Origin: a virus
Taxonomy: Duplodnaviria; Heunggongvirae; Uroviricota; Caudoviricetes
Strand: one strand, 5' to 3'
Length of the DNA stretch: 34,908 nucleotides
IMG/VR virus record: IMGVR_UViG_3300037851_000345
Location: 188,067-222,974 of that record
Shown piece after piece: positions 7,712-29,810 of this stretch (its first letter is position 1; each line of letters starts with the position of its first letter). A model generated the notes under the pieces. The model was not told the DNA's origin, made no database searches, and was given only the letters and a program-made list of their open reading frames with translations. The position numbers were made by a program, and so were the translations under genes.

Positions 7712-8151
7712 TAATTGACAAGTGGGTTGAGGGATATATCGAACGCAAGAAGCAGAAGAAAATAGATAAAACTAGGCTAGAGAATTGGTCTAAACTCTAC
7801 GAGAAACTACACGGCTACACGCCCCATTGTGGGTACTGTGCAAACTTTTCCGATTGTATTAAAAAGTATAAGAAATCAAGTAGGCTTCCAAAAATTAACG
7901 GAGTAACAAGTTGCAGGGAATTTAAAAGCGATGGTAAAGATAGACTCAGAGGCCACGTATCGGGGGTTTCAGGATGGTCGGGATTGTCAGGAGTCTCAGG
8001 TATCTCAGGAGTATCAGGCGTGTCAGCCTACAACAGTAGCGGACAACGGGTTGGAACGTGGCAACCACCTTGGAATCGGGGTGCGCAATCGTGCAACAGA
8101 CTGTGCAACAATTGCTCGTATCACAACGGCACATCTTGCACAAAACCGTAA
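7708..8151 (+). CDS. Paralog-family protein with an inserted Ser-Gly-X repeat
   Basis: WSKLYEKLH...CGYC...SCREFK, then VSGVSGWSGLSGVSGISGVSGVSAY, then CNRLCNNC...C. ATGA overlap at 7708. Confidence 0.75.
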   Translation: MIIDKWVEGYIERKKQKKIDKTRLENWSKLYEKLHGYTPHCGYCANFSDCIKKYKKSSRLPKINGVTSCREFKSDGKDRLRGHVSGVSGWSGLSGVSGISGVSGVSAYNSSGQRVGTWQPPWNRGAQSCNRLCNNCSYHNGTSCTKP

Positions 8152-11248: not shown

Positions 11249-11282
11249 ATTCGAATCCTTTTTATATTTTTATATCAAGTTA

Positions 11283-11798: not shown

Positions 11799-11807
11799 AT
11801 TATTAAC

Positions 11808-12425: not shown

Positions 12426-12443
12426 ATCAAGACTCCTTTATAC

Positions 12444-12450
12444 TATTTAT
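12444..12450 (-). promoter_or_regulatory. Candidate late-promoter motif ATAAATA
   Basis: One of six [A/C]TAAATA sites just upstream of minus-strand starts; overlaps a TAA stop. Confidence 0.35.
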
Positions 12451-12935
12451 TGATTTTGTTTATCAAAAGAAGCCAAATAATGTTTCGAAAGTTGCGTTGG
12501 TTGAAATCCTACGTGGCTTAATTCTTTGATAGTTTTTGATACCATTCTTAGATTTTGAAGTAATTCTACAGTAGTCAAGCGCAAATTCACAAAACGATTA
12601 AGTGTTTGTGTTAACAAACTGAAATCTTCATTTTTATGGATATTATTATTCCAATTATAGATTAGTGTGGAATAAGATTCTATAAATTTTGAACCTTCTT
12701 CAGAAATAACCTGCTCATTCAAAACCGCCAAAAGATATTTCAGACTATCCATAATCAAATTAATACCTGTCGGGGTTAAAGGCGATGGTACTTCATTTTT
12801 TTCACAAACAGAAGCGTCACGTTCAACCATTCCTATTATTTGTACAAATGACTCTTTTCTTTTCCCAAGAAGATAAGTGGCATCTGTATTCCCCAAATAA
12901 CACCTTAACTGTTTAACAAATTCATTCAATCCCAT
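12447..12935 (-). CDS. Helical hypothetical protein, radical SAM operon accessory
   Basis: 162 aa, Leu/Ile-rich amphipathic pattern; start overlaps the radical SAM stop. Confidence 0.65.
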   Translation of the reverse strand: MGLNEFVKQLRCYLGNTDATYLLGKRKESFVQIIGMVERDASVCEKNEVPSPLTPTGINLIMDSLKYLLAVLNEQVISEEGSKFIESYSTLIYNWNNNIHKNEDFSLLTQTLNRFVNLRLTTVELLQNLRMVSKTIKELSHVGFQPTQLSKHYLASFDKQNQ

Positions 12936-15772: not shown

Positions 15773-17155
15773 CTACTTATCTTTACAATATTTGTCAATT
15801 TTTCCAAAAATACATTTGATAAAGTTTGAAATTCCAAACAGTTTGTCGTTCCAGTTTATATAGTAAAAACAGGAACATTTCTGTTCGGGTGGAATAGGAC
15901 AAGTATTACCTGTTTCTTTCCATTTTCCATTTTCACAGGTTGCTGTGATGATAACCGAACCATCATAACAAGTTTCAGTCTTGACTTCACCGATTTGACA
16001 TTCAGGCTTTACGTAGGGAACAGTCCATTTTCCCTTGTTTGCTAATGGCCCAATGTACTGTTCGTATGGAACTGCCATGGCCTCAAAGATTTTGAGTTGT
16101 TCTTCTTTGCAATCATCCCAAGGCTCATCATCAGGAAGATGTTCAATACCCATAATTGGCATTTCAATTCCGTTCCAAACTTTTGTAAGAGCTTCAGTTC
16201 CATGATAGGTACAGATACGAGTTACCATCTGTGTCCATTGGTCAACGCCTGGCCGGGGTGTAGCACCACCCATGCAGCCATCATCACTCACTTGCCAACG
16301 GATAGGATGAACAGCCCAATAATCCATAGCCTGTTCAAACACATTTACGCCTTGATTGTTTTCACAACCACAACAACCGTGGGTCGGACGAATAATACTC
16401 GTATCCCATCTATCTGCAGGGTCTTGTCTTAATGGATGCCACATAAACAAATTGTAGTCATAAATATAACTTGGAAGTTTCTTAAAAAGGTCATTACCAT
16501 TTGAGGGGATATCAGGACAAATTGCCCAAGCGTGCGGCCAAATTTTTTGCTGGTCCATTGTCTCCAAAATAAAATAACAAAAATCAAGACTTTCTGCCGT
16601 CATTTCATTACCCATTCCAAAAACAATTTTTAAACCCTTTTCCTTTGCTAGTTTGAACCACTCCAACATATATGCTAATGCATACTGACGATTTTCAATA
16701 TCATAAAGGTTCTTTATTCCCTGTACATTGTTACGCCAAGGGGAAAATTGTTGGTCATGACTATCATTGGTATATTGATAGAAAAGGTCTATCCAAAGAG
16801 AAATACCTGGGGCAGTATTTCCTGCTTTTTGTGAAGGATAATTCATAATACGAATCATCTGTTCTGCAATTTCCCAATATTTATTATTGCGTTTTGTTAA
16901 GTCAAACACACCCTCAGAAACTTGAACAAATGGGGTGAGGTTAGTTTTGTACCCATTAGAGTCAGACCAATTAGGCCAAACGCTCCATCCTAACCAACGG
17001 AACATATTAACACCACGATTTGCCATATCCATACAATAATTATACCATCGTTCTTCATTTAAAACCCAAGTTTGTTTCTCTTCATCCCACACACTCATTG
17101 TGGGGTCCATTAATGAAAACATTGAACTTGATATAAAATACATTTTATCTGTCAT
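15773..17155 (-). CDS. Probable clan GH-A-like TIM-barrel glycoside hydrolase with Cys-rich C-terminal module
   Basis: GVNMFRW, FDLTK.N..YW, LWIDLF, SPW.NNVQG, GMGNE (NE acid/base-like), C-terminal C..GE.K...C.DGS.I...C..GKW..T...CP. AGGAGG RBS. Confidence 0.55.
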   Translation of the reverse strand: MTDKMYFISSSMFSLMDPTMSVWDEEKQTWVLNEERWYNYCMDMANRGVNMFRWLGWSVWPNWSDSNGYKTNLTPFVQVSEGVFDLTKRNNKYWEIAEQMIRIMNYPSQKAGNTAPGISLWIDLFYQYTNDSHDQQFSPWRNNVQGIKNLYDIENRQYALAYMLEWFKLAKEKGLKIVFGMGNEMTAESLDFCYFILETMDQQKIWPHAWAICPDIPSNGNDLFKKLPSYIYDYNLFMWHPLRQDPADRWDTSIIRPTHGCCGCENNQGVNVFEQAMDYWAVHPIRWQVSDDGCMGGATPRPGVDQWTQMVTRICTYHGTEALTKVWNGIEMPIMGIEHLPDDEPWDDCKEEQLKIFEAMAVPYEQYIGPLANKGKWTVPYVKPECQIGEVKTETCYDGSVIITATCENGKWKETGNTCPIPPEQKCSCFYYINWNDKLFGISNFIKCIFGKIDKYCKDK

Positions 17156-17213: not shown

Positions 17214-18065
17214 TTACGCTGTACGTTTCCATATATAAACAACAAAGTAAGGTGGAATATTATCCCCATTTCCTGAATCAAATTCGGCAATATCTGTAGT
17301 ATGGGTGTGATTATCAATAGGAATAACACTATCACTACCACCTGCTGCCCAATAACCCTGTGAACTTGGACCACCTGATGCTGTAGCAGGTGGGTCAACT
17401 TTATGTGTGTGTCCCGAAGCACCACCTGTTGCCTCAACGGTTCCAAATAATCCATCCCCTGACTTATATCCAACAAGAAATTGTCCTTGGGCAATTTGAG
17501 ACCAAGTACCAAATCCTAAAAGTGTATTAGGATTCGTAGAAACAACTGAAAGAAATACAGAACCTATAGGCCACGCACTATCAAGACTTGGAGTAGTGCC
17601 TGAGTAACCCGATACTCCTGAGTAACCCGATATCCCTGAGTAACCCGAATAGCCCGAATATGAAATCCAATTCGACCCATCATACCAATATGGAATATTA
17701 GTATCAGAATTAAAATACATTTGTCCTTCAACCGCACCCACTGGATTAGAAGTAAAAACAGGAAGAACAAATAATCCACCATCTGATAAGTTAACATTAT
17801 ATGTAACACCCGACACGTTCATGTTAAATGTGTCGCCGTCAACACCAAGCGTTATTGTGTTAGTGCCTTGACCTGAAATGATGGATGATTCTTCAAAAAC
17901 TAAATTTGCGGCAGAACCAACATCCCCAATTAAAACATCACCACTAGAACATCCAACAACAAGCGTTCCGCTTGCATCAACATAAATTGTGCAGAGATAG
18001 GTGTTGGATGCTGAATAAATATCTAATGTCTGACCATCAAGAATTTGTATTGGTGTTCTTGCCAT
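17214..18065 (-). CDS. Tail fibre protein with SGY repeat and T4 gp10-like C-terminal domain
   Basis: P...EGQMYFN...YDG..W, SG-X repeat, WPIGSVFLSV..TNP..LLGFGTW...GQFLVG...HTH...PPYFVVYIWKRTA. Confidence 0.8.
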   Translation of the reverse strand: MARTPIQILDGQTLDIYSASNTYLCTIYVDASGTLVVGCSSGDVLIGDVGSAANLVFEESSIISGQGTNTITLGVDGDTFNMNVSGVTYNVNLSDGGLFVLPVFTSNPVGAVEGQMYFNSDTNIPYWYDGSNWISYSGYSGYSGISGYSGVSGYSGTTPSLDSAWPIGSVFLSVVSTNPNTLLGFGTWSQIAQGQFLVGYKSGDGLFGTVEATGGASGHTHKVDPPATASGGPSSQGYWAAGGSDSVIPIDNHTHTTDIAEFDSGNGDNIPPYFVVYIWKRTA

Positions 18066-18075
18066 CTTATTTTAT

Positions 18076-20379
18076 TTATCTAATTCTGTTTCCAAGGAGT
18101 CTTGTGCCTGTTGCATTGGCGTTGCCCAATCTCCAAAAATTATGCATAACCCCCGCTTCCCAAATACAACCACCTGGGTCGATTTGGGGTTGGTCAAGCC
18201 ACATATTTGCCCCTGTCGTAAAATATCCCCCTAAGCGAATATATAAATATCTATCATCTGTACAAGTATAAGTTACTTTAAGATATTCCCAATCTGCTCC
18301 GGTTGCTTCATCTAATGCCAATGCGGTATTCAGGTCATCTCTAATTTCTAAATAAGGTCCATTAACAGTACCAGATTGTCTTGCCCAACCACCAACATTT
18401 ATTACTGCGCCCTTTCTTCCAGAAATAACTGCGAAGAATCCTAACATAAAATTAATATTACTAGATTCAGAAGTAAATTTCCAAGAATAATTAGGAGATT
18501 TTTTAATACTTTCATCTTTTTCTCCATATCCTCGCATATATAAAAGAATATGGTTTCCTTTTATTAAATTATAATTTTCTAATAGACCTACAGCATAACA
18601 AAGGTGTTGGGTACTAGTATAGAACATAGGATGTCCAAAGTTAGCCGCTACAATAGGTTTGCTAGTAGATGTATCACCATAAAAATTTCTCATAATAGGA
18701 TATTTACCAAGAGATTCTAAATAAGCCGTTTTTGAAGATACATTAGAAAGTTTTATTTTATTAATTGAACCTGATCCTGATTCAAAATTATATCCAAAAA
18801 ATACACCACTTACACAATAATTTATTCTAATATATTTTACTTCTAATGCTGGTTTTCCACTATATGCCGCTCCAAGTATTGAATAATTACTATAATATTG
18901 TAGAAATCCGTATCCAGCAGCCATTTCGGAAAAATTATAAACCACAGAATCATTACTATATCCATTTAGATAGAAACCACCACCATTTGTATAATCCGCA
19001 GCGAGAGAAATATTTCCGCTAACATATTCATTAGTAGCATTTCCTGTTAAATATATTCCTCTGCCAATATTATATGTAACACAATTTTTTAAAACATTAT
19101 ATGCCCCTTGGACTCCTAAATATCCATATGTTGCTATAGAAAGTCTACAACATACATTTAAGATAATATTTTTTCCTCCAGCCCAATTTCCTGCATTAAT
19201 CAAAGTAACATTATTTGTTGTAAGACCTGTATATCTTGTTTCTAAATTTTGTATATTTACTGTTCGAACATTAGTTCCTGTTGGTATTGAAATATATCCT
19301 GTACAACCCGTTTGTGAATCTGAAGTATTTCCATGAAAAATGCAATCTCTGTTTAATTTTACAACCAATCCAGCCACAGTATGAGTTGCCGAAAGATTGG
19401 AAGCAAAATTAATTCTATCGCTTCCCCCACTTCCACCACCTACGGAAATACTATCTATAATTTTCGCTTCCCTGCTTGTATAAACCGCGCCGCCGATGGC
19501 TATTGTGTCCCCGTTCGACCACCCCCCTGCAGAAGATACATCGATATAACTATTTCCTGAAGTTGCCTCGATGATGGTTGCGGCAAGTTTGTAAACATAA
19601 TCTCCCGAAGCGTGGGCAATTTCAACCCCGCCTTCGTAACCTTTAATTCCTATGGTGTGGTTCGCTGTTGCATTGGCTGTGGTATAAATTATTTTATTGT
19701 AGATATCAATACTTGATACTTCAAATACTTCCGTGTCAATAACAAACTTCATCCCCGCTTCCCACGCTCTCGTATCTTCTGAAATATGAAAACTGTTATT
19801 CCCTATTGATGTCTGCGTGGTCAAGGTAAATTCAGGGCCAACCATTCTTCGTACATAAACATTTGTTCCGCTTATGGCATGAATGTAGAATACTTCATCT
19901 GTTCTGTCATTGTATGCCATATTGGTATAGTCATAGACGCTTATCCAATCTCCCACTCCAAATCCCGAAATACTTGTCAACTGCAAGTATCCATCTCCAA
20001 CTGCCGCATCTGCAGAAAGAGTAGTTTGTGAATTTGGAACCGTTCCTGTTGCGGTAAAAACATTACCTGTTATATTTGCTACTGTTAAAGCACCCAAGCA
20101 TCTCAAAAATGTCCCGTCTTTGAGAATCAGGCTTCCCGCCGTAGTTGAACCTACCGTTATGCTTGAACATCGAAGAGTTTTTGTTCCAACCCCACCTGCC
20201 CATTGTAAAGTGCCGCCGCCGTTTATTGTGATGGCTCCTATCGTATTCACATCATCGTCTATGTCATAAGTTACTGTGTGCGTAATTGTTACTGTGTCTG
20301 TTGCCGCAGGAACACCAGATGGACTCCAAGTTCCTGGTGTTCCCCAATTACCATTTCCTGCACTTGCTTTTGCTGCCAT
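18076..20379 (-). CDS. Tailspike/fibre with right-handed beta-helix and C-terminal CBM-like jelly roll
   Basis: N-terminal GNWG..GTW.P.GVP...DTVTI motif, Asn/Gly/Tyr-rich beta-helix rungs, C-terminal WEYLKVTY...YIRLG...WLDQ. Confidence 0.7.
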   Translation of the reverse strand: MAAKASAGNGNWGTPGTWSPSGVPAATDTVTITHTVTYDIDDDVNTIGAITINGGGTLQWAGGVGTKTLRCSSITVGSTTAGSLILKDGTFLRCLGALTVANITGNVFTATGTVPNSQTTLSADAAVGDGYLQLTSISGFGVGDWISVYDYTNMAYNDRTDEVFYIHAISGTNVYVRRMVGPEFTLTTQTSIGNNSFHISEDTRAWEAGMKFVIDTEVFEVSSIDIYNKIIYTTANATANHTIGIKGYEGGVEIAHASGDYVYKLAATIIEATSGNSYIDVSSAGGWSNGDTIAIGGAVYTSREAKIIDSISVGGGSGGSDRINFASNLSATHTVAGLVVKLNRDCIFHGNTSDSQTGCTGYISIPTGTNVRTVNIQNLETRYTGLTTNNVTLINAGNWAGGKNIILNVCCRLSIATYGYLGVQGAYNVLKNCVTYNIGRGIYLTGNATNEYVSGNISLAADYTNGGGFYLNGYSNDSVVYNFSEMAAGYGFLQYYSNYSILGAAYSGKPALEVKYIRINYCVSGVFFGYNFESGSGSINKIKLSNVSSKTAYLESLGKYPIMRNFYGDTSTSKPIVAANFGHPMFYTSTQHLCYAVGLLENYNLIKGNHILLYMRGYGEKDESIKKSPNYSWKFTSESSNINFMLGFFAVISGRKGAVINVGGWARQSGTVNGPYLEIRDDLNTALALDEATGADWEYLKVTYTCTDDRYLYIRLGGYFTTGANMWLDQPQIDPGGCIWEAGVMHNFWRLGNANATGTRLLGNRIR

Positions 20380-20382
20380 TCC

Positions 20383-21801
20383 TTACCCCAATATCAAAAA
20401 TTTCAAAATCGCATTTTCAGGAAGAGCATAGGTGAAGTCTACACTTGTTGTTGATGTTTCCCAATAATCTGCATCGTTTGCTATGTTGCTTGTGTCGATT
20501 CGTTGCAAGAGACCATTGACGAACAAGTGTAAAAATTGTCTGTCGCCTGATTTTAGGCTATATGAATAACTATTTGGGACTGTGATGGCTGTTCCTGCTG
20601 CAACACCTCCTGCAGGAATTGCATAATAGAGCGTATAGTTTTGAACAAGACCGCTTATTCCTGAATATCCTGAGTAACCTGAGAATCCTGAGACTCCACT
20701 ATATCCACTAACTCCGCTGTATCCTGATACCCCTGAATTGCCGCTTTCACCACTAAATCCCGATGCTCCTATACTGCCGCCACCTCCACCGCCGCCTGAA
20801 ACAAAATAAGTTTCTGTTTCTCCATCCGTTGCGCCTTCTTGAATAACAGACCTACCAATAAGCATACAATGGTAGCGAAGAACAGAAGGAATTGTATCAT
20901 AAGGTGTTTCTTTTTTTGCTAAATCGGAAGTGTTGTAATAATTTCTTCCTAAAAGATAAAATATTTGGTTAACATCTCCAATGCTTCGATAAAACCATCT
21001 AACTGCATACTTATTTGCAGGGATGGGTGTTACGACTCCAGCATTACAATAGTCGGTATTGTTATATGTTGTTTCGTCCGAATATGTCCAAACTCCTGCA
21101 ATCTGGCGAGTAAAGGTCATTCTATCCACGGAAGAATCAAAATTACCTAGTGTTATTATTTGATTAAGGGCATAAACAGGACCACCCGTTACGGTAATTG
21201 TTCTATTTGTGGGTGTGGTGATTTCAGCAATACGGGCTGTTGTAAAATCACCATAAAATAATCTATAAGGGTCTGTCCATGCTTGGACAAACAACATTTT
21301 ATTGGTAAGTCCTTTACCGACAGTTCCCGTATCGATAGAATGGACTTCATCGATGACCCCATCATCAATACGCCATACAACAAAAACAATTACCTCATCA
21401 CTACTGCTAGTTTGGGTTGGATAATTTACTATTCTATATTCAGGACTGCCGCCGTTGTAATGAATAGTGATATATTGCATATCATTAATCGTCAATGGAC
21501 CTAGCGTATCCCCCGCCACAGGATATTCAATAATGGCTCCCGTGCTGTTGGGATTGTCCCGAAGGTGGACAGTTGTGGCTCCTATTGTTACTGTTCCATT
21601 ACCATTATCCTTAAAAGTTGGTACTGTTAAAACACCAACTGTTCTGTCATCGATGAAGTTCAGGTTAGGAATATTGTTGTATCCACTATGTCCTGATGCT
21701 TGGGCTAGGTCATCATAACCCTGCGTGTCTCCTGCTGTGATTACGCCATTATCTTCAATAGTAAAGACCTTATCACCATTTTGATATATTCTTCTGCTCA
21801 T
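20383..21801 (-). CDS. Virion structural protein with SG-X repeat
   Basis: 472 aa, beta-rich, poly-Gly then 13-14 S-G-X triplets, C-terminal LHLFVNGLLQ...DY.ET beta-domain typical of fibre proteins. Confidence 0.7.
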   Translation of the reverse strand: MSRRIYQNGDKVFTIEDNGVITAGDTQGYDDLAQASGHSGYNNIPNLNFIDDRTVGVLTVPTFKDNGNGTVTIGATTVHLRDNPNSTGAIIEYPVAGDTLGPLTINDMQYITIHYNGGSPEYRIVNYPTQTSSSDEVIVFVVWRIDDGVIDEVHSIDTGTVGKGLTNKMLFVQAWTDPYRLFYGDFTTARIAEITTPTNRTITVTGGPVYALNQIITLGNFDSSVDRMTFTRQIAGVWTYSDETTYNNTDYCNAGVVTPIPANKYAVRWFYRSIGDVNQIFYLLGRNYYNTSDLAKKETPYDTIPSVLRYHCMLIGRSVIQEGATDGETETYFVSGGGGGGGSIGASGFSGESGNSGVSGYSGVSGYSGVSGFSGYSGYSGISGLVQNYTLYYAIPAGGVAAGTAITVPNSYSYSLKSGDRQFLHLFVNGLLQRIDTSNIANDADYWETSTTSVDFTYALPENAILKFLILG

Positions 21802-22124
21802 TATAGTGGGAAATAAGTGATAGAGTGTTTAAAGATAGGAGCGATTCCTGTATTTGAGGAAATATACAATACCCTTACATATTCTTCATCAACAGAGGCA
21901 CAAAATAAGATTCCTGTTTCATCAAAATTAGCAACCGTTACAATTTGTGCGGTGTTCGTAAAGCGGTTATATGTCAGGTGAATTTCTCCCTGTTCGACTT
22001 GGTTGCCACGTATTACGCTGTAATTTATCAGCGCACCTTTGAATGTTTTTGTGTAGAAGGAGAGCAGATTGGCATAGGCGGCTTGGTTATTGTTTAGTAA
22101 AATTTCTCCTGCTCTTGTTGGCAT
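21801..22124 (-). CDS. Small hypothetical virion protein
   Basis: 107 aa beta-strand pattern (FKGALINYSV.RG...E.G.I); translationally coupled to neighbours. Confidence 0.65.
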   Translation of the reverse strand: MPTRAGEILLNNNQAAYANLLSFYTKTFKGALINYSVIRGNQVEQGEIHLTYNRFTNTAQIVTVANFDETGILFCASVDEEYVRVLYISSNTGIAPIFKHSITYFPL

Positions 22125-22145
22125 CTATAGTTTAACATCCTTATT

Positions 22146-23054
22146 TTACGTTATAGAAATTATTACAATTCGGCCTGCAAATCTTCCGTCAACGCCAGGA
22201 GTTTGGTTAACTTGCAAACGAAGTTCATTAGCCCCTCTCTTCACAAGTTGGTAAGGTTTAGGAACTGTTTGTGTCTCGTAGTACGGGGCAACAGGAACAG
22301 GGTCGTAACCTGAATATCCTGGCGAAACCGTTTCGTCCCAAACTTGTACAACCAATTTCTGTGAGTTCAGACTGTGGGTGAAATCGATTTTGTAGTAGGT
22401 GGTCATATTCGACCATGATGCGCTTGCATCAAATGTTGTCGAATAAACGCCAGCAACTCCTAAGCCGCTGAATCCTGATATGCCACTATAGCCTGACTTG
22501 CCACTGTAACCCGATATGCCGCTATATCCCGACTTGCCACTATAACCTGATAACGAAGAGTAGCCTGATACGCCTGAATATGCGGAGTAGCCTGATACTC
22601 CGCTATAACCTGATACACCGCTGTAGCCCGACTTGCCGCTGTAGCCTGAGTATCCCGACTCGCCGCTGTAGCCTGATATGCCACTATAGCCTGACGGCCC
22701 GGAGTAACCTGAATAATTTGGTCCGACATCAGCACCTGAATATCCTGAGATTCCCGAATATGCAGAGAAGCCCGATATACCACTATACCCCGATTCGCCA
22801 CTGTAACCGCTGAAGCCCGCGCCAGAAAAACCACTTGTGCCTGAATATCCTGACCACGCAGAATAGCCTGATATGCCACTGTCACTAGAAAATCCGCTGA
22901 AGCCCGAAATGCCCGATGCACCAGGATTTTCTCCACTCCAGCCCGATATCCCTGAGAAACCTGAGTATCCTGATTGGCCTATTCTACCACTATAACCGGA
23001 TAGTCCTGATGAGGCCCCCAATCCCATTATTTCACGAGCGTCTATATTTGGCAT
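22146..23054 (-). CDS. Ser-Gly-X repeat fibre protein
   Basis: About 185 aa of S-[GAS]-X triplets, then a beta-domain IDFTHSLNSQKLVVQVWD. Confidence 0.8.
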   Translation of the reverse strand: MPNIDAREIMGLGASSGLSGYSGRIGQSGYSGFSGISGWSGENPGASGISGFSGFSSDSGISGYSAWSGYSGTSGFSGAGFSGYSGESGYSGISGFSAYSGISGYSGADVGPNYSGYSGPSGYSGISGYSGESGYSGYSGKSGYSGVSGYSGVSGYSAYSGVSGYSSLSGYSGKSGYSGISGYSGKSGYSGISGFSGLGVAGVYSTTFDASASWSNMTTYYKIDFTHSLNSQKLVVQVWDETVSPGYSGYDPVPVAPYYETQTVPKPYQLVKRGANELRLQVNQTPGVDGRFAGRIVIISIT

Positions 23055-23066
23055 TACAAACTTCTC

Positions 23067-24323
23067 CTATACCTTTTGAATAATATACAAACCGCAATAC
23101 TGTGGATAGAATGATAAATTTAATCCTTGACTTAAAGGATGGTCATGGTCAACATCTCTACGTTCGTGGTAAGTTCCAGGTCGTTCCGTATTTTCATTCA
23201 AAGCAGGATTTGGTGTATCTACATCTTCAGTACTTCCCGTACTATCTTGAAAATGAGTATGAGAAAGTTCTCCGCCGCCTAAAGGTCTATCAGAAAATTT
23301 CTGCATCGCTAATAAATTTCCTGATGTTGGGGTGATACTAATAACGTTAGTTCCTGTCCTTGTACCTCTGTTAGCATTAGTACTCATTATAATGAAATGT
23401 TCTCTCATATCGATTGTTCCATTAGTCCCATCACATACTGACCAACCCGCAGGACATGGAAGTGCAGCGTCCCAAAATCCAATCATTCCCTTAAATCCGT
23501 AGAATGATACTGCAGCAGTCCATGCTGTTACATAGGCTCTTTTGATATTATCTGTAAGTGTTACTGAATTGATTTCATGATTATGATAGCCGTCTCGTCC
23601 ATCATAAATCCATCCGGCCGGAGAAAGAAATATTCTAGAATAGTTTGATTGGGGTTGACCAGGTGAACCGATTGATGGTGGTTGATAATAATCCCATTCG
23701 TGAACATGTTTACCTCCTAAGATACCTATTGATTCGTCAGCCCATTGAACGATATTAACAGAAGTTTCACCTGTTGCTGTTCTATTTCCTGCTCGTAAAT
23801 ACTTTCCTTCTGTTGCTGTCTGTGTTAACCACGGAATGTTAGAGTGAATGGTATTAAGAAGAATTGAATTACTTGGGAGTTTTTCTGTTGGCCCAGTTGC
23901 TTTAATGAATTGATATTGATTATATCCTATTGTCGGGGTACAAAGCAATCTGTGATTATGGTTCCCGGCCGCTTGACCACCTGCTCTACGATGGGGGTCC
24001 CAACCATTTGCATAATATTTTCCTGTGCAAGCCGTAATAGGCCAAACTCGCCCGCCTGCCCCATCAACACTATGAAGGCCGTCTGAGGTTGTGAAAAATG
24101 ATACCTTACCATTTGGAGACCCACCTATTCCTGAAGAGCCGACTGCTACCGTGCCGCCTGCGCCTCTGATGTAACAACCGCTAAACCCCACTCCAACGCC
24201 AACGTTGGGAGTAGTTAAAAGAGACCATCCTGTAGGTGCGGATTCACCATAACCCCCTGCCCACGGAACAATTATTCCAGTAGGAAGGTTGTTAAATTCG
24301 AAAGTATCAATGAAACCAATCAT
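23067..24323 (-). CDS. Tail fibre protein with tandem tail-collar-like/HxH units
   Basis: PTGIIVPWAG..APTGW...YIRG; GMIGFW...CPAGWSVCDGTNGT.D.R..FI; several HxH motifs; P.Y..L.II.K end. Confidence 0.8.
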   Translation of the reverse strand: MIGFIDTFEFNNLPTGIIVPWAGGYGESAPTGWSLLTTPNVGVGVGFSGCYIRGAGGTVAVGSSGIGGSPNGKVSFFTTSDGLHSVDGAGGRVWPITACTGKYYANGWDPHRRAGGQAAGNHNHRLLCTPTIGYNQYQFIKATGPTEKLPSNSILLNTIHSNIPWLTQTATEGKYLRAGNRTATGETSVNIVQWADESIGILGGKHVHEWDYYQPPSIGSPGQPQSNYSRIFLSPAGWIYDGRDGYHNHEINSVTLTDNIKRAYVTAWTAAVSFYGFKGMIGFWDAALPCPAGWSVCDGTNGTIDMREHFIIMSTNANRGTRTGTNVISITPTSGNLLAMQKFSDRPLGGGELSHTHFQDSTGSTEDVDTPNPALNENTERPGTYHERRDVDHDHPLSQGLNLSFYPQYCGLYIIQKV

Positions 24324-24339
24324 AATTTAGTCTCCACTT

Positions 24340-25515
24340 TTATAGTTTGTTGCCGATGAAATATACTTTCAGGCCCGCAGCATTTGTTCCTGCCGAGTTT
24401 ACCCCTATTAGGATTTCTGAATCGTTAGGAAGAGTTGGAATGGATATGCCGCCGCCTGCGAGAACCGTTGCCGATTTTGTTCCTAAAGGAATCGTAAGGA
24501 ATGTGGTCAACATATTACTTCCTGTGCTTCCGGGATAATCTGCATTAAGTCGGATTGCTACCGTTGTATTTGTGGAAGCAACGGCTGTTAACGAGGCTTT
24601 AACACTAGTCAAAAGCATCCCATATGGCATACGGAAAATGGTTTTCCAACCTGTCGTGAGAGGAGTTGATTCATCTGAACACGTTACGAGAATACATTCT
24701 GACCCTGTGCTTCCTGAAAAGCCTGACGTGCCTGAGTAGCCGGACCGGCCACTGTAACCACTAAGACCCAATCCTGAAAATCCTGAAATTCCTGAGTAAC
24801 CTGAGTATCCTGGGTTCTCGCCGCTGTATCCTGATATGCCTGAGTAGCCCGAGTCGCCTTGCAACGCTGCTGCACCATCCACTCCCGAATATCCTGAGAA
24901 TCCTGAGTCAGAAGAAAAACCAGAAAATCCCGAAAATCCCGAAACACCGATTTCTCCTGAAAATCCCGACCACCCATTCAGTCCCGAATACATTGAGGCT
25001 GTAGTTTGGCCAGCAGTTGTATTGCTACTTACCAAGCCAGGGGTTGAACCGCCACCTGCTGTAGAGTCAATTTCGACAGTTCCAAATTGAACATAATTTT
25101 CACCAGACGCAATAAGAAGAGCCATTTCAGCAGGAGTTTTTAGATAAAACTCTACTCCACGGTACTCATCATCATCATTTGCCCATTGTGCTATCAATGC
25201 ATATCCTACTCCATCGGCATAGATAGGAAGAGTATAGTCGAGAATCATATCAACTTTGGCAATTTTTTCATTAGGAGAAACTGCATCTTTTTGTTTAATT
25301 AAAAAGGAAGTCCCTGCTGGAATAGTCGGCCCTACAGTTGGTGGGTCTCCACCCGCAGTATCAGGACTTGGTGTATAAAACAATACACCTTGTTCAAAGA
25401 TATTGACGAACCAACGATTTAGAACATCTCTGTCAATGTCTGTTTTATAATGCCAAATTACGGATTGAGGATATGCTGTTCCTCCATATCCTTGTTCTGC
25501 GACATATTTACTCAT
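24340..25515 (-). CDS. Tail fibre/baseplate protein, paralog 4, with SG-X repeat
   Basis: N-terminal Q.V.WHY...LN..F..IF..GV domain, long SG-X tract, C-terminal beta-sandwich. Confidence 0.7.
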   Translation of the reverse strand: MSKYVAEQGYGGTAYPQSVIWHYKTDIDRDVLNRWFVNIFEQGVLFYTPSPDTAGGDPPTVGPTIPAGTSFLIKQKDAVSPNEKIAKVDMILDYTLPIYADGVGYALIAQWANDDDEYRGVEFYLKTPAEMALLIASGENYVQFGTVEIDSTAGGGSTPGLVSSNTTAGQTTASMYSGLNGWSGFSGEIGVSGFSGFSGFSSDSGFSGYSGVDGAAALQGDSGYSGISGYSGENPGYSGYSGISGFSGLGLSGYSGRSGYSGTSGFSGSTGSECILVTCSDESTPLTTGWKTIFRMPYGMLLTSVKASLTAVASTNTTVAIRLNADYPGSTGSNMLTTFLTIPLGTKSATVLAGGGISIPTLPNDSEILIGVNSAGTNAAGLKVYFIGNKL

Positions 25516-25533
25516 ATTTTCACTCCTCTATGT

Positions 25534-25540
25534 TATTTAT
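25534..25540 (-). promoter_or_regulatory. Candidate late-promoter motif ATAAATA
   Basis: Intergenic, upstream of the GAGGAG RBS of the 391-aa gene. Confidence 0.4.
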
Positions 25541-25558
25541 CGAATTTAGTAAAAACAC

Positions 25559-27154
25559 CTAAGCCAATTCACCTATGGCTATCCAATGGGTCGAGAAATC
25601 CGCTGAGGTATCAGAAACTAGGCTTGTTCCTGATGTGCCTTCGTGATGGTGAACCCAAAATCCTGTAGTGGTGATAGCAGTCTCGTTTACCGACTTCCAC
25701 TCATCAGTCTCTTGGTTCAAAAGGAAAACTCTAGGAGCGTCTGCAAACGTTTTGCGGAATGTTACTCCTGATGAGCCCCCTTTACCGATTTCTCCTCCAA
25801 GCATAAATATCTTTTTTGGAATTGCAAGGTCGTAGCGAAACGGAACTGTCAGGCTTTGATGGCGATATTCTAGTGTTTTTGCTGCTAGTGAATCTGCTAT
25901 TACGTAACCATTTTCGTTCACGTTCATGATTTTTTTGTATGTCAGGCCATCGGCAATTTCATCTAAACGATGAGTATGTCCTGCTGAAGAAAATTCAGAG
26001 ACTTTGTAACCATCAAAATATTCTGTATTAAGAGATGTTTGAAGAACAGTATTACTTACGGGTAAATATCCTGAGTAGGCCGAGAAGCCCGACACCCCAC
26101 TCCAACCCGATACGTTGTATCCTGAGAAACCTGTGTAACTAACAAGTCCCGACTGACCGATTGCGTACTCATACCCGCTACGAAGCAATCTTGCACCAAT
26201 CATATTGATCGAGAGAACTTCATTCTTCAGGCCGATACTATTTGCGGCATCGCTAACAGTAATCCCATTCAAGTATTGGGCGTTAAGTCCTACATTCATT
26301 GTACTATTGCTTAAAGGAATATTTCCTGACATATTACCAATGTGTCTTTGTGTAGTTCCATCATCGATGTAGCTGGGGTTACTTCCTTCAAGGGTTCTTA
26401 CTCCCGAACGAATCAACGTATCATAATTGATGCAGTTATCGTTCAGGTAAACTTGGGTTTGATAAGACGAGTCCAAGGTTCCGACACTCATTTTACCAAT
26501 GATGATATCATAATCTGAACTAATTGCGTTTTCTTCCACAAAAGAAAACTTCACAATATGAGAGTTTATCTTTTTGAAATTCAAAGTTTGCACCTCTTTC
26601 GAATAAGTTACGAATGCCTCACCTCCTGCGGTATCTGATACTGTAAATGCTTCTGGAAATACTTCTAACACATAATAGTTTTGGTCTTGGATAATTCCCG
26701 CCTTAGTTACATCAAAACGAACGACATCTCCTACTGCAAGATTGTGAGCAATTGGGGTAGTATTGATACTGCTGTCTAATTCTATTTTGCAAGGAATAAT
26801 ATCTTCGATATAGTATCCTGAATATCCTGAAATTCCGTAGTCGGCTGTCTCGTAGTTAAATCCGTTTGGCGGGGTTATCCAATCCATATTGGCAACTAGA
26901 TAAGTATCATTTGCACCGACTACCACTTTTACTGAAGTCATCGTGTCTACTTTAACCAAAAAGTTTTTGGTCTTTGGTCGTATTAAGGCAGAAAAAGAAT
27001 TAATCTCTATCTCACTACCAGATAATGTGTGGTTAAATTTCAGAACGCCAGGTGTAAAAGTCGAGTAGAGAAGTTTGTTAAGATTTTCAGCAACGAACTC
27101 GTGGACAAAATTGAAATTGATTACTTGTCCTGCAGACCCCACTTTCTGTGGCAT
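25559..27154 (-). CDS. Tail fibre/baseplate protein, paralog 3
   Basis: Shared N-terminal domain, IP.SN..LN..LNA..L.G repeats, HTH.LDEI.D, short SG-X tracts, one H.L..GD.V.F module. Confidence 0.75.
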   Translation of the reverse strand: MPQKVGSAGQVINFNFVHEFVAENLNKLLYSTFTPGVLKFNHTLSGSEIEINSFSALIRPKTKNFLVKVDTMTSVKVVVGANDTYLVANMDWITPPNGFNYETADYGISGYSGYYIEDIIPCKIELDSSINTTPIAHNLAVGDVVRFDVTKAGIIQDQNYYVLEVFPEAFTVSDTAGGEAFVTYSKEVQTLNFKKINSHIVKFSFVEENAISSDYDIIIGKMSVGTLDSSYQTQVYLNDNCINYDTLIRSGVRTLEGSNPSYIDDGTTQRHIGNMSGNIPLSNSTMNVGLNAQYLNGITVSDAANSIGLKNEVLSINMIGARLLRSGYEYAIGQSGLVSYTGFSGYNVSGWSGVSGFSAYSGYLPVSNTVLQTSLNTEYFDGYKVSEFSSAGHTHRLDEIADGLTYKKIMNVNENGYVIADSLAAKTLEYRHQSLTVPFRYDLAIPKKIFMLGGEIGKGGSSGVTFRKTFADAPRVFLLNQETDEWKSVNETAITTTGFWVHHHEGTSGTSLVSDTSADFSTHWIAIGELA

Positions 27155-28479
27155 TAGATTATCTCCCCAATCACAAAGTAATAGTATTGATTTGCGCCTG
27201 CATCAGATGCATCTGTTCTTTTGTAGTCGCTTCCCGATTTTACGATACTACCCATCTGTCTTGCTTTGAAGAATGTATTTGTAATTTGTGTTACCTTAGC
27301 ATATCTTTTTTCCAATCCTGCGGCAATTGCTCCTTCTCCGACGGCAGGAACTCTCTGCAAGAAGACACGAGCATTTTTCATTTCTCTAGTAAGTGGAACT
27401 GTCCCTACAATATTTCCCGTTAAAGTAAAACTTCCTGTTTCGTAGACGGGTTGGTACCAATTCATAATTCTCGCATCGTAGGCAATAGCATCGATATTAG
27501 TATATTCAATATCGTCTTCTTCGATGGAATCAGGGGTTGGTGTATTACCTTCTACTCCTGCCACACGATAATAGGTAGTGCTTGACGGGTTTGCGTCATC
27601 AAGGATTTCATCTAGTGTGTGAACGTGGGTTGACTTGGAAAATTCTGACTGTGGATAATTACCTACGAACTCAGCGTTCAGGTTTTTCTGTAAAACTGTA
27701 TTTGCTACAGGAATTTGGTCTTGGAATCCTGGCAAAGTCGCACCGTCTTGTGGTTGTATTTTTTTACCCATCACGTACTCTGCTGTAACACCTTCACCAA
27801 GGTCAACCGCATCAGAATCCATCCAAGATGGATAAACAGGATATGTGATGATAGTATTTCCTCCAGCGTCAAGCGTAATACTCGAAACGTCTTTAGAAAC
27901 CACGTATTCTGTGATTTCTTTGCCGTTAAAGAATTGAGCATTAAGGTTAGTATTCAGTTCCCCGTCCGATATAGGGAGTTGACTCGATTCGTGTCCTGGG
28001 AAGTAACCGTCAAGTTTTGCAATCAGGGGGAAAGCGGTATCTTTCTGAATCACCTTTAATCTTGCCCTTTCCTGAACATCGTAATTAAGAGCCGTGATTT
28101 TTCCGTCTTGGTCGAGGGTCAAGCCAACGAGAATCACGTCCGTTCCGATGACAGTCGCATCATCTACGAACAGGAACTCTGCACCTACGTTGGCATTTTC
28201 CCAACGGTATCTTGCCACTAGGTAGATGCTTGTCGGAGAAGTCTTCGTTATCGTAATTGCTTCGGTAGTGTCGATGCGCACAAGCAAATCTGTTTGATTT
28301 TGTGGATGAACAAGAAAAGACACGACATTGATTGTAACTGTGCTAGGACTAAAGTCGAAATTTCCTTCAATCAGGCCAGCCGTAAACATCTGATAGAAAA
28401 TCTTGTTCAGAATATCAGGGGCTAGTTCTTGGTGGTAGTGAATATTTAATATTTCTGTGCCGTTATTTAAAGTCTTCAT
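27154..28479 (-). CDS. Tail fibre/baseplate protein, paralog 2
   Basis: Likely start ATG 28479 (TAATG overlap). Shared N-terminal domain, LP.S.G.LNTNLNAQFFNG repeats, HVHTLDEI.D. Confidence 0.75.
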   Translation of the reverse strand: MKTLNNGTEILNIHYHQELAPDILNKIFYQMFTAGLIEGNFDFSPSTVTINVVSFLVHPQNQTDLLVRIDTTEAITITKTSPTSIYLVARYRWENANVGAEFLFVDDATVIGTDVILVGLTLDQDGKITALNYDVQERARLKVIQKDTAFPLIAKLDGYFPGHESSQLPISDGELNTNLNAQFFNGKEITEYVVSKDVSSITLDAGGNTIITYPVYPSWMDSDAVDLGEGVTAEYVMGKKIQPQDGATLPGFQDQIPVANTVLQKNLNAEFVGNYPQSEFSKSTHVHTLDEILDDANPSSTTYYRVAGVEGNTPTPDSIEEDDIEYTNIDAIAYDARIMNWYQPVYETGSFTLTGNIVGTVPLTREMKNARVFLQRVPAVGEGAIAAGLEKRYAKVTQITNTFFKARQMGSIVKSGSDYKRTDASDAGANQYYYFVIGEII

Positions 28480-29810
28480 TAAAACGCACTCCCACTGTAG
28501 TAACCTACTGCAAGCCATTGAACCGTGAGGGTTGATATTGCCATCGATGTGTACTGCTCCGTGTCAAGTCCTGAGTAACCTGTATATTTTAGGGTGAAAT
28601 GAGATGGATGAACATCGACTGCCTCTACCTTTATATAGTGTCTATCGTCATAGGTCGGAGTTCTATCAATTATTTGAAGCATAACATCAGGTGGGTCATC
28701 GAAGGCGAAGTACAGTTGATTTTCAGGATTGAACGGAATATGCGTGTAGTTGGCAGTTACCGTCGTTTCTCCTGTGATTATCAGCGGCGGCCCGCCGCGG
28801 TCATCATTCCGAGCGAAGAAGCACTCGTCTCCAATCTTCTCTCTCGTGATAGCACGAGTTTTGAATGAGTCGTGAGTCAAATGATGGTCTACGTTGACTC
28901 CTACTGGCCGCTTAAAGACGGAGTTCATATCCTGAATATCGTCTAAGTTGTGCTGATGATTGGAACGAGAAAAGGACATGTATCCTGACCCGCCTACAAA
29001 TTCAGCGTTCAACCCTACGTTCAGCGTTTTGTTGCTTAACGGAATATTTTTAACAGCGTTTCCAGGCTGATAAAAAATACCGAACTCATCGGCTACATAT
29101 TGAATGTTAAGTCCTGAATTCTGTTCCCACTTCACAGCCACTTCATTACCTGAGTAGCCATTAATCATTTCGGCATTCAATCCTGAACACATCATACCGT
29201 TTGAAATTGGGACGTATCCTGATTCGTTGCCTGCTTGGTAGCCGTCAATCCTATAAACGTTCATCTCGTAGAGGATAACAGGATTCAATTCTGCAACTTC
29301 TTGGTCGTTAAAATTTACTTCTTGTAAATAGGCTCCTGATGGTATTACTTTACCCAAGATAATACTATTGTTGATGGGTTTAGAGGAAACAATGCTAAAT
29401 TCCACAGGTAAATCTGAGAACTCTAAATAATTGTACTTGGCAATCAACCAACCACCACCTGAACTAGATGGAACTACGCAGAAATCCTTCACGATGTCGC
29501 ACTTCAAAATTTGCTGTTCAAGAATTTGCTGTTCTAGGGTTGATAAGGCTTCAAAATTTTCTTGAATGACGCCGCCTTCGTAACGGTTATTTGGGGAGAT
29601 AAGAAAACTAAATCCCGCAGGAATTTTGACTTGTGTTCCCTGAGTGCTTGTGTTGTAATCCACATCCACCGTTATCGGTATTCCTGATTCGGGAATCACT
29701 CCTGTGGTGAATATATTTTGGAACAACTTGTTTTGGTACGAGGAAATCAGTCTAGTCTTGTAGTGCCAGTTTACCGCTTGCGTACCATCTAATCCATAAT
29801 TTATCGGCAT
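28479..29810 (-). CDS. Tail fibre/baseplate protein, paralog 1
   Basis: GTQAVNWHY...QNKLFQNIFTTGV domain, VPISNG...GLNAEMING repeats, HQHNLDDI.D. AGGAGA RBS. Confidence 0.75.
   Translation of the reverse strand: MPINYGLDGTQAVNWHYKTRLISSYQNKLFQNIFTTGVIPESGIPITVDVDYNTSTQGTQVKIPAGFSFLISPNNRYEGGVIQENFEALSTLEQQILEQQILKCDIVKDFCVVPSSSGGGWLIAKYNYLEFSDLPVEFSIVSSKPINNSIILGKVIPSGAYLQEVNFNDQEVAELNPVILYEMNVYRIDGYQAGNESGYVPISNGMMCSGLNAEMINGYSGNEVAVKWEQNSGLNIQYVADEFGIFYQPGNAVKNIPLSNKTLNVGLNAEFVGGSGYMSFSRSNHQHNLDDIQDMNSVFKRPVGVNVDHHLTHDSFKTRAITREKIGDECFFARNDDRGGPPLIITGETTVTANYTHIPFNPENQLYFAFDDPPDVMLQIIDRTPTYDDRHYIKVEAVDVHPSHFTLKYTGYSGLDTEQYTSMAISTLTVQWLAVGYYSGSAF

What the first reader, a model, noticed from the sequence alone, without database searches (positions are those of the whole stretch)
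17598..26840. Ser-Gly-X (SGYSGX) repeat shared by at least five tail proteins, with Ser rather than Gly invariant
Seen: tracts in the 283-, 472-, 302-, 391- and 531-aa proteins, the longest about 185 aa (22460-23015). Gly is repeatedly replaced (SAY, SAW, SSD, SSL) while Ser stays at every third position. Aromatics (Y/F/W) tend to alternate with I/V/K/E, and Pro is nearly absent. Known: a collagen helix needs invariant Gly and is usually Pro-rich, so this is not typical collagen. Inference: a polyglycine-II or beta-solenoid fibre whose Ser hydroxyls or aromatic residues may be targets of the GT or radical SAM enzymes encoded downstream.
Basis: partly seen in the sequence, partly recalled or inferred. 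Interest (0 to 1): 0.7.

Follow-up and report, generated by a model that had tools for sequence, protein, structure and literature searches.

The report
Proline-free Gly-Tyr-Ser collagen-like phage fibre stalks
The "SGYSGX" tracts are real but are collagen-type Gly-X-Y repeats read one residue out of register; they most likely form length-variable three-chain stalks in this jumbo phage's tail-fibre proteins, are unconnected to the neighbouring radical-SAM operon, and travel across viruses with a different sugar-transferase family encoded elsewhere in this genome.

Summary
The tracts exist in all five proteins, and in at least three more proteins of this 223-kb phage. Read as G-X-S they are Gly-X-Y repeats: Pfam's Collagen model passes its cut-off in two proteins, and PDB sequence matches are mainly collagens. 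"Ser, not Gly, invariant" is a small-sample impression. Here Gly is replaced 7 times and Ser 3 times in 138 triplets. In 9,858 triplets from 120 other viral loci, Gly is kept in 98.5% and Ser in 92.5%, and Gly gives way almost only to Ala or Ser. Aromatic alternation and near-absence of Pro are confirmed.

The link to the downstream radical SAM/GT operon fails both ways. 31 of 32 repeat-bearing viral records lack the enzyme, and nine distant cassette loci have no such tract but keep their own adjacent repeat proteins. A different enzyme does co-travel: a viral family-2 glycosyltransferase lies beside these repeats in 55 of 80 loci chosen by the enzyme alone, against 2 of 80 control loci. This genome encodes it outside the window, at 24-29 kb.

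So this is a proline-free, Tyr/Ser-rich variant of known phage collagen-like fibres, possibly O-glycosylated. Neither helix nor sugars are shown. The scan has noted this repeat type several times on other DNA.

The parts
17214..18065 (-). p283: N-terminal domain, then a G-X-S tract of 8 triplets (17592-17663), then a Gp10_C baseplate-type domain that starts directly after the tract
   Evidence: Pfam Gp10_C covers residues 161-282 at 74 bits.
20383..21801 (-). p472: 335-aa N-terminal domain, then a Gly run plus G-X-S tract of 17 triplets (20644-20796), then an 86-aa C-terminal domain
   Evidence: Pfam Collagen scores 20.2 bits, below the cut-off. The orthologue in L010 keeps the N-terminal domain at 94% identity but has 26 triplets and an unrelated C-terminal part.
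22146..23054 (-). p302: four G-X-S segments (22926-23024, 22815-22922, 22728-22817, 22458-22709) covering residues 11-199, then a roughly 100-aa all-beta C-terminal domain
   Evidence: Pfam Collagen scores 67.6 bits against a cut-off of 27.2. Collagens are the top PDB sequence matches. A homotrimer model passes, with confident contacts only in residues 198-302. Orthologues have 46 and 84 triplets with 85% and 98% identical C-terminal domains.
24340..25515 (-). p391: N-terminal domain that by eye resembles those of the 531-, 454- and 443-aa neighbours, then four G-X-S segments (24697-24984), then a C-terminal domain
   Evidence: Pfam Collagen scores 41.4 bits. Against the L010 orthologue, identity is 86% before the tract and 61% after it.
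25559..27154 (-). p531: two short G-X-S tracts (26063-26107, and about 26815-26841) in a fibre protein with a weak H-type-lectin / gp53-like C-terminal match
   Evidence: repeat family D5, copy at 26815-26841.
7963..8025 (+). Seven G-X-S triplets (G-V-S, G-W-S, G-L-S and so on) inside a 151-aa Cys-rich ORF (7696-8151), outside the fibre module

Best explanation
The tracts are collagen-like Gly-X-Y segments with X = Tyr/Phe/Trp alternating with Ile/Val/Leu/Lys/Glu, and Y = Ser. They most likely form the three-chain stalk of several trimeric tail-fibre or baseplate-attached proteins of a T4-like jumbo phage. Each protein is built as an N-terminal attachment domain, a stalk, and a C-terminal globular domain.

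The C-terminal domain probably trimerises and sets the register of the three chains. The stalk acts as a stiff spacer whose length is easily changed, and as a junction at which heads are exchanged. At the collagen rise of about 0.29 nm per residue (textbook value), the 84-residue run would be about 24 nm long.

With Gly in the core, the Ser and Tyr side chains point outwards. The Ser hydroxyls are plausible O-glycosylation acceptors. The best candidate enzyme is a viral family-2 glycosyltransferase / FkbM-methyltransferase module at genome 24-29 kb, not the radical SAM/GT1 operon next door.

Shown: the repeat and its register, the substitution pattern, selection at the protein level, tract-length plasticity, the lack of linkage to the radical SAM operon, and the linkage to the GT2 family.
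Inferred: the triple helix itself, trimer stoichiometry of the stalk, and glycosylation.
For: 1. Register and constraint. Gly is kept in 94.9% of 138 triplets here and 98.5% of 9,858 triplets in 120 viral loci. Of its 149 replacements there, 145 are Ser or Ala, the smallest residues. Ser at Y gives way to Thr, Gln, Asn, Asp, Ile, Ala or Val.

2. Family matches. Pfam Collagen scores 67.6 bits (p302) and 41.4 bits (p391) against a cut-off of 27.2. PHROG 'tail fiber' and 'collagen like minor tail' families match. The best PDB sequence matches are collagens, with BclA also listed.

3. Selection on protein, not DNA. Ser at Y uses both codon classes (TCN 74, AGY 28) and Gly uses all four codons. DNA identity between tracts is only 60-80% over 27-62 nt.

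4. Trimer context.
- A model of three copies of p302 residues 100-302 scores 0.80 against a best control of 0.00.
- That mark was reached by 21 of 30 proteins solved as pairs of one chain and 0 of 23 solved as single chains. The counts hold only roughly, because the calibration used two copies.
- The three runs agree in at least 66% of contacts and pLDDT is at least 50.
- Confident contacts are confined to residues 198-302, starting where the tract ends.
- In p283 the tract abuts a Gp10_C domain; T4 gp10 is a trimer (established knowledge).

5. Plastic spacer and swap point. p302 orthologues have 46, 55 and 84 triplets with 85-98% identical heads. The p472 orthologue is 94% identical before the tract and unrelated after it.

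6. GT2 linkage.
- Clustering the neighbours of repeat genes, with no prior assumption, finds a GT2 family in 40 of 120 loci, against terminase in 9.
- The GT2 genes lie a median of 969 bp from the nearest tract, and 62 of 62 are on the same strand as it.
- Of 80 viral loci chosen by GT2 similarity alone, 55 carry runs of four or more G-x-S triplets, against 2 of 80 terminase-chosen loci (Fisher p about 2e-20).
- This genome has the family at 24-29 kb, immediately upstream of further repeat-bearing fibre genes. The family alignment has an invariant Asp-Asp-Asp.

7. Precedent. The C. difficile GT gene sgtA lies immediately upstream of bclA3. Its product adds O-GlcNAc to the Y-position Thr of Gly-Pro-Thr repeats and also accepts Ser (PMC7157674).
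Against: - No experiment or confident model shows a triple helix for this sequence class. The trimer model gave no confident contacts within the tract.
- In published host-guest scales (Persikov et al. 2000, recalled and not checked here), Tyr and Phe at X and Ser at Y are among the least favourable residues for triple-helix stability. Pro is almost absent.
- Gly-to-Ala or Gly-to-Ser replacements at about 5% of triplets here would locally perturb a triple helix.
- Glycosylation is inference only. The GT2 family is present in just 12 of 32 repeat-bearing records and 1 of 6 near-complete ones. So the repeat does not depend on it.
- In this genome the GT2 genes are far from the window's five genes.
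- The co-occurrence counts are not corrected for shared ancestry.
Confidence: 0.75

Rival explanations
1. One reading: a non-collagen fibre (polyglycine-II bundle or beta-solenoid) organised around an invariant Ser, whose Ser or aromatic residues are modified by the radical SAM enzymes or the GT1-like enzyme encoded just downstream.
For: - The operon is physically close: the radical SAM gene ends about 2 kb from the nearest tract.
- Both radical SAM proteins resemble peptide-modifying SPASM-type maturases, including cyclophane-forming ones that act on aromatic residues.
- In this genome Ser is replaced slightly less often than Gly, 3 against 7.
- The three closest relatives carry both the cassette and the repeats.
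Against: - The radical SAM enzyme is absent from 31 of 32 repeat-bearing viral records, and from all 6 near-complete ones. The GT1-like protein is absent from all 32. Positive controls gave 3 of 3.
- Nine loci carrying eight distant cassette proteins (32-41% identity) have no G-x-S run of four or more triplets within 10 kb. One locus lies in a bacterial gene context.
- Every cassette keeps adjacent proteins with a shared M-x-F-x-W head and a four-residue repeat. These are the likelier substrates.
- Gly is one third of the residues, runs reach 84 residues without turns, and X is bulky. Polyglycine-II bundles have higher Gly content, with short helices joined by turns.
- No hexapeptide or solenoid family matched at E <= 0.1, whereas Collagen did.
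Confidence: 0.04
2. The tracts are not a triple helix. They are flexible low-complexity linkers, or aromatic-rich segments that self-associate through kinked beta contacts as in the [G/S]-Y-[G/S] motifs of FUS-type low-complexity domains. They would serve as tethers or sticky coats.
For: - The composition (Gly, Ser, Tyr) resembles such domains (my knowledge, not tested).
- Tyr, Phe and Ser have low triple-helix propensity (recalled).
- The trimer model is not confident within the tract, and overall pLDDT is only 51-53.
Against: - Strict three-residue periodicity runs for up to 28 triplets here and far longer elsewhere.
- Gly is replaced almost only by Ala or Ser, which a disordered linker would not require.
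- A hexad alternation of X is maintained across thousands of triplets.
- The tracts are placed between folded domains, with a modelled trimeric head starting exactly at the tract's end.
Confidence: 0.12
3. The repeat is kept mainly as a recombination substrate. Shared repeat DNA lets fibre genes exchange heads, and the protein structure is secondary.
For: - One orthologue pair switches from 94% identity to unrelated sequence exactly at the tract. Another drops from 86% to 61% across it.
- Tract length changes fast between relatives.
Against: - Tracts in different genes share only 60-80% DNA identity over 27-62 nt, with no long identical stretch.
- Synonymous codons are highly mixed, including both Ser codon classes. 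That points to selection on the protein and is poor substrate for homologous recombination.
- This reading is compatible with the best explanation rather than an alternative to it.
Confidence: 0.08

Closest known systems
Collagen-like tail-fibre and minor-tail proteins of phages and prophages ('Bacteriophage collagen', Smith et al. 1998, cited in PMC1079782; E. coli O157 prophage proteins, PMC3368898; P-SSM2 orf023/orf028, PMC1079782; PHROGs 5073, 6320, 1806)
   Same: Gly-X-Y tracts lie between globular domains of fibre proteins. The Pfam Collagen model matches and PHROG tail-fibre families match. The P-SSM2 paper already notes X and Y 'often proline, serine or threonine' in a T4-like cyanophage.
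   Different: Here Y is Ser in 98% of triplets, X is aromatic or aliphatic in a hexad alternation, and Pro is under 1%. Described prokaryotic collagen-like proteins have 19-31% Pro at X and 32-48% Thr at Y (PMC8968730). I found no paper on this flavour.
BclA (Bacillus) and BclA3-SgtA (Clostridioides difficile) exosporium filaments
   Same: A collagen-like region with a hydroxyl residue at Y, and a globular C-terminal domain. The GT gene sits beside the collagen-like gene. SgtA O-glycosylates the Y-position Thr and accepts Ser (PMC7157674). BclA appears among the PDB sequence matches.
   Different: Those repeats are Gly-Pro-Thr in bacterial spore proteins. The enzyme here is a viral GT2, often fused to further GT2 domains and an FkbM methyltransferase domain, and no glycosylation has been shown. 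Any relationship between this GT2 and SgtA was not tested.
Polyglycine-II helix bundles (snow-flea antifreeze proteins; phage S16 gp38 tip)
   Same: Gly-rich extended helices of the polyproline-II type, and one example sits in a phage fibre.
   Different: Those bundles have higher Gly content (the synthetic two-layer sheets about two thirds) and short helices joined by turns. These tracts have one third Gly, bulky X residues and up to 84 residues without a turn.

Membership tests
Collagen triple-helix repeat (Pfam PF01391; Gly-X-Y) | Gly at every third residue over many consecutive triplets | tested here: met
   131 of 138 triplets in this genome and 98.5% of 9,858 triplets in 120 viral loci. 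Exceptions are almost only Ala or Ser.
Collagen triple-helix repeat (Pfam PF01391; Gly-X-Y) | Score above the family's curated cut-off | tested here: met
   p302 scores 67.6 bits and p391 41.4 bits against a cut-off of 27.2. p472 scores 20.2 bits (below). p283 and p531 are too short to match.
Collagen triple-helix repeat (Pfam PF01391; Gly-X-Y) | High imino-acid (Pro/Hyp) content, or another known stabiliser such as charge pairs or glycosylated Thr | tested here: not met
   Pro is 0.7% of X positions. Lys, Glu, Asp and Arg together are about 10% of X here and lower in other loci. This feature is typical of collagens rather than strictly defining.
Collagen triple-helix repeat (Pfam PF01391; Gly-X-Y) | Three chains wound into a triple helix (CD signature, protease resistance, solved structure) | not testable with these tools
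   The homotrimer model passes (0.80 against 0.00 for the best control), but its confident contacts lie only in the C-terminal domain, residues 198-302.
Polyglycine-II helix bundle | Gly content well above one third, with short helices joined by tight turns | tested here: not met
   Gly is one third of the residues and unbroken runs reach 84 residues. The criteria are taken from 10.1101/2023.11.25.568672.
Beta-solenoid / hexapeptide-repeat left-handed beta-helix | Match to a solenoid or hexapeptide repeat profile | tested here: not met
   No such Pfam family appears at E <= 0.1 for any of the five proteins.
Substrate of the neighbouring radical SAM / SPASM maturase cassette | Substrate gene co-occurs with the maturase across genomes | tested here: not met
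   31 of 32 repeat-bearing records lack the enzyme. Nine distant cassette loci have no G-x-S run of four or more triplets within 10 kb. Those cassettes keep other adjacent repeat proteins.
Glycosylated collagen-like fibre (BclA3-SgtA type) | GT gene linked to the collagen-like gene | tested here: met
   55 of 80 GT2-chosen loci carry tracts against 2 of 80 controls. The GT2 genes lie a median of 969 bp from a tract, always on the same strand. In this genome the GT2 genes lie beside the other repeat-bearing genes at 24-35 kb, not beside the window's five.
Glycosylated collagen-like fibre (BclA3-SgtA type) | Sugars attached to the Y-position hydroxyl residues | not testable with these tools
   This needs mass spectrometry or an in vitro transfer assay.

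The most novel reading that the evidence does not exclude
Gly-(aromatic/aliphatic)-Ser tracts are a distinct, widespread viral class of proline-free collagen. Their Y-position serines would be O-glycosylated, and perhaps methyl-sugar decorated, by a dedicated virus-borne GT2/FkbM-methyltransferase module. Sugars and stacked aromatic ladders, rather than imino acids, would then stabilise the triple helix and coat the fibres.
Probability: 0.35. Interest if true: 0.65.

Novelty: new variant of a known kind. Interest (0 to 1): 0.42.

Why it matters
Collagen-like stalks in phage fibres are known. It appears undescribed in the papers I could search.

If it does form a triple helix, it extends the sequence rules for collagen stability. 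It would also offer a simple, length-tunable, Pro- and Hyp-free building block.

The tight and asymmetric linkage with one viral GT2 family gives a directly testable enzyme-substrate pair for virion glycosylation in phages.

Tried and rejected
- **BLAST against deposited phages:** the 7.7-kb fibre region, p302, the radical SAM protein and the tract DNA all gave no match. The low-complexity filter probably hides the repeat, so this says nothing about cultured phages.
- **Homologue search with the p302 C-terminal domain:** nothing at similar lengths. 'Longer' and 'shorter' were not tried.
- **AlphaFold2 monomer of the p302 C-terminal domain:** all-beta but pLDDT 56. That is too weak, so no fold search was run.
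- **Trimer model:** it does not resolve the tract itself, so it cannot decide between a triple helix and disorder.
- **Alignment-based locus search with the radical SAM enzyme:** only close kin returned. I used the protein database plus contig look-ups instead.
- **His-every-fourth-residue pattern search:** my simple regular expression found nothing, even in this window. The four-residue register was judged by eye from the printed proteins.
- **PDB chain 8zxl 'spindlefibril/axialfibril':** it looked like a possible special match but is an ordinary collagen assembly.
- **Literature searches** for Gly-X-Ser, Gly-Tyr-Ser or proline-free phage collagen: nothing relevant.
- **Recent gene conversion between tracts:** rejected on DNA identity.
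Full report
**Setting.** The window is the last 34.9 kb of a complete 222,974-bp virus record with direct terminal repeats. Earlier notes of this scan call it an uncultured freshwater relative of T4. From 34.9 kb down to 17.2 kb the minus strand carries a run of large structural genes. Several have weak or clear tail-fibre or baseplate signatures: Gp10_C, tail collar, H-type lectin / gp53-like C-terminus, and a tail-collar fibre N-terminus. Downstream at 15.6-10.3 kb lie two radical SAM genes, a small protein, two His/Tyr/Thr/Asn-rich proteins and a GT1-like gene.

| Protein | Tract (window) | Triplets |
|---|---|---|
| p283 | 17592-17663 | 8 |
| p472 | 20644-20796 | 17 |
| p302 | 22458-23024 | 11 + 12 + 10 + 28, in four segments separated by one- to six-residue register breaks |
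| p391 | 24697-24984 | four segments |
| p531 | 26063-26107, plus a short one near 26815-26841 | 5, plus about 3 |

- The same repeat occurs elsewhere in the genome. It is in a 785-aa and a 167-aa protein at 30.6-34.9 kb, and in a 151-aa Cys-rich ORF at window 7696-8151.
- Only 2 of 80 control viral loci (1.1 Mb) hold four consecutive G-x-S triplets, so chance is excluded.
- The 158-aa ORF at 22460-22936 is a shadow frame of the repeat.

**Register.** Written from Gly, the unit is G-X-S.
- To avoid favouring either residue, I seeded tracts on four perfect G-x-S triplets. I then extended them while either Gly or Ser was present, and trimmed the ends.
- In this genome Gly is kept in 131 of 138 triplets (otherwise Ala 4, Ser 3) and Ser in 135 of 138 (otherwise Ile 2, Leu 1).
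- In 120 other viral loci with the repeat (9,858 triplets), Gly is kept in 98.5% and Ser in 92.5%.
- Gly gives way to Ser or Ala in 145 of 149 cases. Ser gives way to Thr, Gln, Asn, Asp, Ile, Ala or Val.
- So the position that tolerates only the smallest residues is Gly, as in a collagen core.
- The other details hold. Pro is under 1%. Aromatic X alternates with non-aromatic X, giving a hexad G-Ar-S-G-x-S.

**Known families.**
- Pfam Collagen passes its cut-off in p302 (67.6 bits) and p391 (41.4 bits), and nearly does in p472.
- PHROG tail-fibre and 'collagen like minor tail' families match.
- NCBIfam collagen-like adhesin models match weakly.
- The best PDB sequence matches are collagens, with BclA also listed.
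- No solenoid or hexapeptide profile matched.
- Polyglycine-II bundles have higher Gly content, with short helices joined by turns. These tracts have one third Gly and run up to 84 residues.

**Selection and dynamics.**
- Ser at Y uses both codon classes (TCN 74, AGY 28) and Gly uses all four codons.
- Tracts in different genes share only 60-80% DNA identity over short stretches. The repeat is therefore held by selection on the protein, not by recent DNA duplication.
- Between close relatives the tract length changes while the heads stay put. p302 has 55 G-x-S triplets and its orthologues have 84 and 46, with C-terminal domains 98% and 85% identical.
- The p472 orthologue is 94% identical up to the tract and unrelated after it. 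In p391, identity drops from 86% to 61% across the tract.
- The tract thus behaves as a length-variable spacer and a module boundary.

**Trimer context.** Three copies of p302 residues 100-302 were modelled.
- The score was 0.80 against 0.00 for the best of three controls.
- That mark was reached by 21 of 30 proteins solved as pairs of one chain and 0 of 23 solved as single chains. The counts are only roughly applicable, because the calibration used two copies.
- The three runs agree in at least 66% of contacts, and pLDDT is at least 50.
- All confident contacts lie in residues 198-302 and begin at the end of the tract.
- This supports a trimerising C-terminal head, which is the usual arrangement for collagen-like fibres. 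It leaves the conformation of the tract unshown.
- In p283 the tract runs straight into a Gp10_C domain. T4 gp10 is a trimer (established knowledge).

**The proposed link to the radical SAM/GT operon.** It fails in both directions.
- *Forward.* Of 32 repeat-bearing viral records that could be searched whole, one has a weak match to the radical SAM enzyme (E = 5e-5). None of the six near-complete records has a match. None of the 32 has the GT1-like protein. Positive controls on this genome and two relatives gave 3 of 3 for both proteins.
- *Reverse.* The radical SAM enzyme has 123 relatives in the protein database. I fetched nine loci for eight of them, at 32-41% identity. None has a run of four or more G-x-S triplets within 10 kb. 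The only Gly-X-Y run of six triplets is a Ser-free one in L135. The three close relatives (67-76% identity) do carry the repeat.
- One distant locus, L135, sits among bacterial housekeeping genes.
- All cassettes keep neighbouring proteins with a shared M-x-F-x-W head, a C-x-x-H junction and a four-residue repeat. Those proteins are the natural substrate candidates, as earlier notes proposed. The cassette is an independent neighbour.

**A different enzyme does travel with the repeat.** Earlier notes on other genomes claimed that a sugar-transferase cassette accompanies such fibres. I tested this without assuming any family.
- I took all ORFs from the 120 repeat-bearing loci, masked the repeats, and clustered them.
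- The most recurrent non-repeat family, in 40 loci, is a family-2 glycosyltransferase. A small unknown protein follows in 27 loci. Terminase appears in only 9.
- The GT2 genes lie a median of 969 bp from the nearest tract. All 62 are on the same strand as it.
- In reverse, 80 viral loci fetched by GT2 similarity alone carry tracts in 55 cases, and in 34 of the 45 loci of at least 12 kb. Terminase-chosen loci carry them in 2 of 80 (Fisher p about 2e-20, not corrected for ancestry).
- This genome encodes the family outside the window. A 425-aa GT2 protein and a 1,151-aa protein (GT2, FkbM methyltransferase, GT2, GT2) lie at 24-29 kb. The small protein and an LtfC-like protein follow, and then the other repeat-bearing fibre genes.
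- The family alignment has an invariant Asp-Asp-Asp. It has no PHROG match.
- The link is asymmetric. Only 12 of 32 repeat-bearing records, and 1 of 6 near-complete ones, have this GT2. In bacterial and archaeal genomes the repeat occurs almost without it.
- That pattern fits an enzyme that needs the repeat, and a repeat that does not need this enzyme.
- SgtA and BclA3 of C. difficile give a tested precedent for a GT encoded beside a collagen-like gene. SgtA glycosylates the Y-position hydroxyl residue and also accepts Ser.

**Comparison with what is known, and verdict.**
- Collagen-like tracts in phage fibres have been known since 1998. The P-SSM2 paper already notes Ser and Thr in such repeats of a T4-like cyanophage.
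- Described prokaryotic collagen-like proteins are Pro-rich at X and Thr-rich at Y. The Tyr/Phe-Ser, Pro-free flavour here is different, very common in uncultivated viruses, and absent from the papers I could search.
- This scan has met it at least eight times on other DNA.
- I therefore class it as a new variant of a known kind.
- The general idea of enzymatic decoration of the serines survives with another enzyme, as an inference.
- Open points are whether such a sequence really forms a triple helix, given the low helix propensity of its residues, and whether it is glycosylated.

Noticed in passing
Genome 24,048-29,006 (L261:3049-8006, + strand), outside the window: A 425-aa GT2 protein and a 1,151-aa protein with four Pfam-matched stretches (GT2_4, FkbM methyltransferase, GT2, GT2). 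A conserved 163-aa unknown protein and an LtfC-like protein follow, directly upstream of repeat-bearing fibre genes of 785 and 167 aa. The GT2 family has no PHROG match.
   Followed up: yes
Window 10265-15626 (-), and loci L132-L140: The cassette of two radical SAM genes plus a helper is conserved at 32-41% identity in phage tail regions and in one bacterial context (L135). It always sits beside proteins with an M-x-F-x-W head, a C-x-x-H junction and a four-residue repeat (for example I-G-E-D in L133). In several loci these proteins lie upstream of the enzymes rather than downstream.
   Followed up: partly
Window 7696-8151 (+): A 151-aa Cys-rich ORF in the early-gene paralogue array carries seven to eight G-X-S triplets (G-V-S, G-W-S, G-L-S and so on). 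It is the only such tract outside fibre genes, and its meaning is unknown.
   Followed up: no
Window 24340-29810 (-): By eye, the 391-, 531-, 454- and 443-aa proteins share an N-terminal segment of about 40-60 aa (W/F-H-Y ... N-x-x-F ... G-V/L). The last three also share internal L-N-A-E/Q-F/Y-x-x-G motifs. This suggests a paralogous set of fibres with one attachment domain and different distal parts.
   Followed up: no
Window 20383-21801 (-) compared with L010:4914-6596: The orthologue is 94% identical over the first 335 residues, then has twice as many triplets and an unrelated, longer C-terminal part with a second tract. This is a head swap located at the repeat.
   Followed up: partly
L012/L023 (IMGVR_UViG_3300032401_001536); match at G001:C1:1524-1952: The only repeat-bearing record with any radical SAM match (E = 5e-5, 33% identity over 140 residues, in a 557-aa frame). 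The record is also extremely rich in G-Y-S tracts, with 26 pattern matches.
   Followed up: no
L013, L026, L031, L054, L057, L076, L079, L084 (GVMAG contigs): The G-Y-S-G-x-S pattern also occurs in contigs labelled as giant-virus MAGs, so this repeat flavour is not confined to phages.
   Followed up: no
Window 22460-22936 (-): The 158-aa GTG-started ORF in another frame of the p302 repeat is a shadow of the repeat, not a gene.
   Followed up: partly
Window 15773-17155 (-): A 460-aa protein with no Pfam or NCBIfam match lies between the last fibre gene and the radical SAM genes. It is Trp- and Cys-rich and its role is unknown.
   Followed up: no
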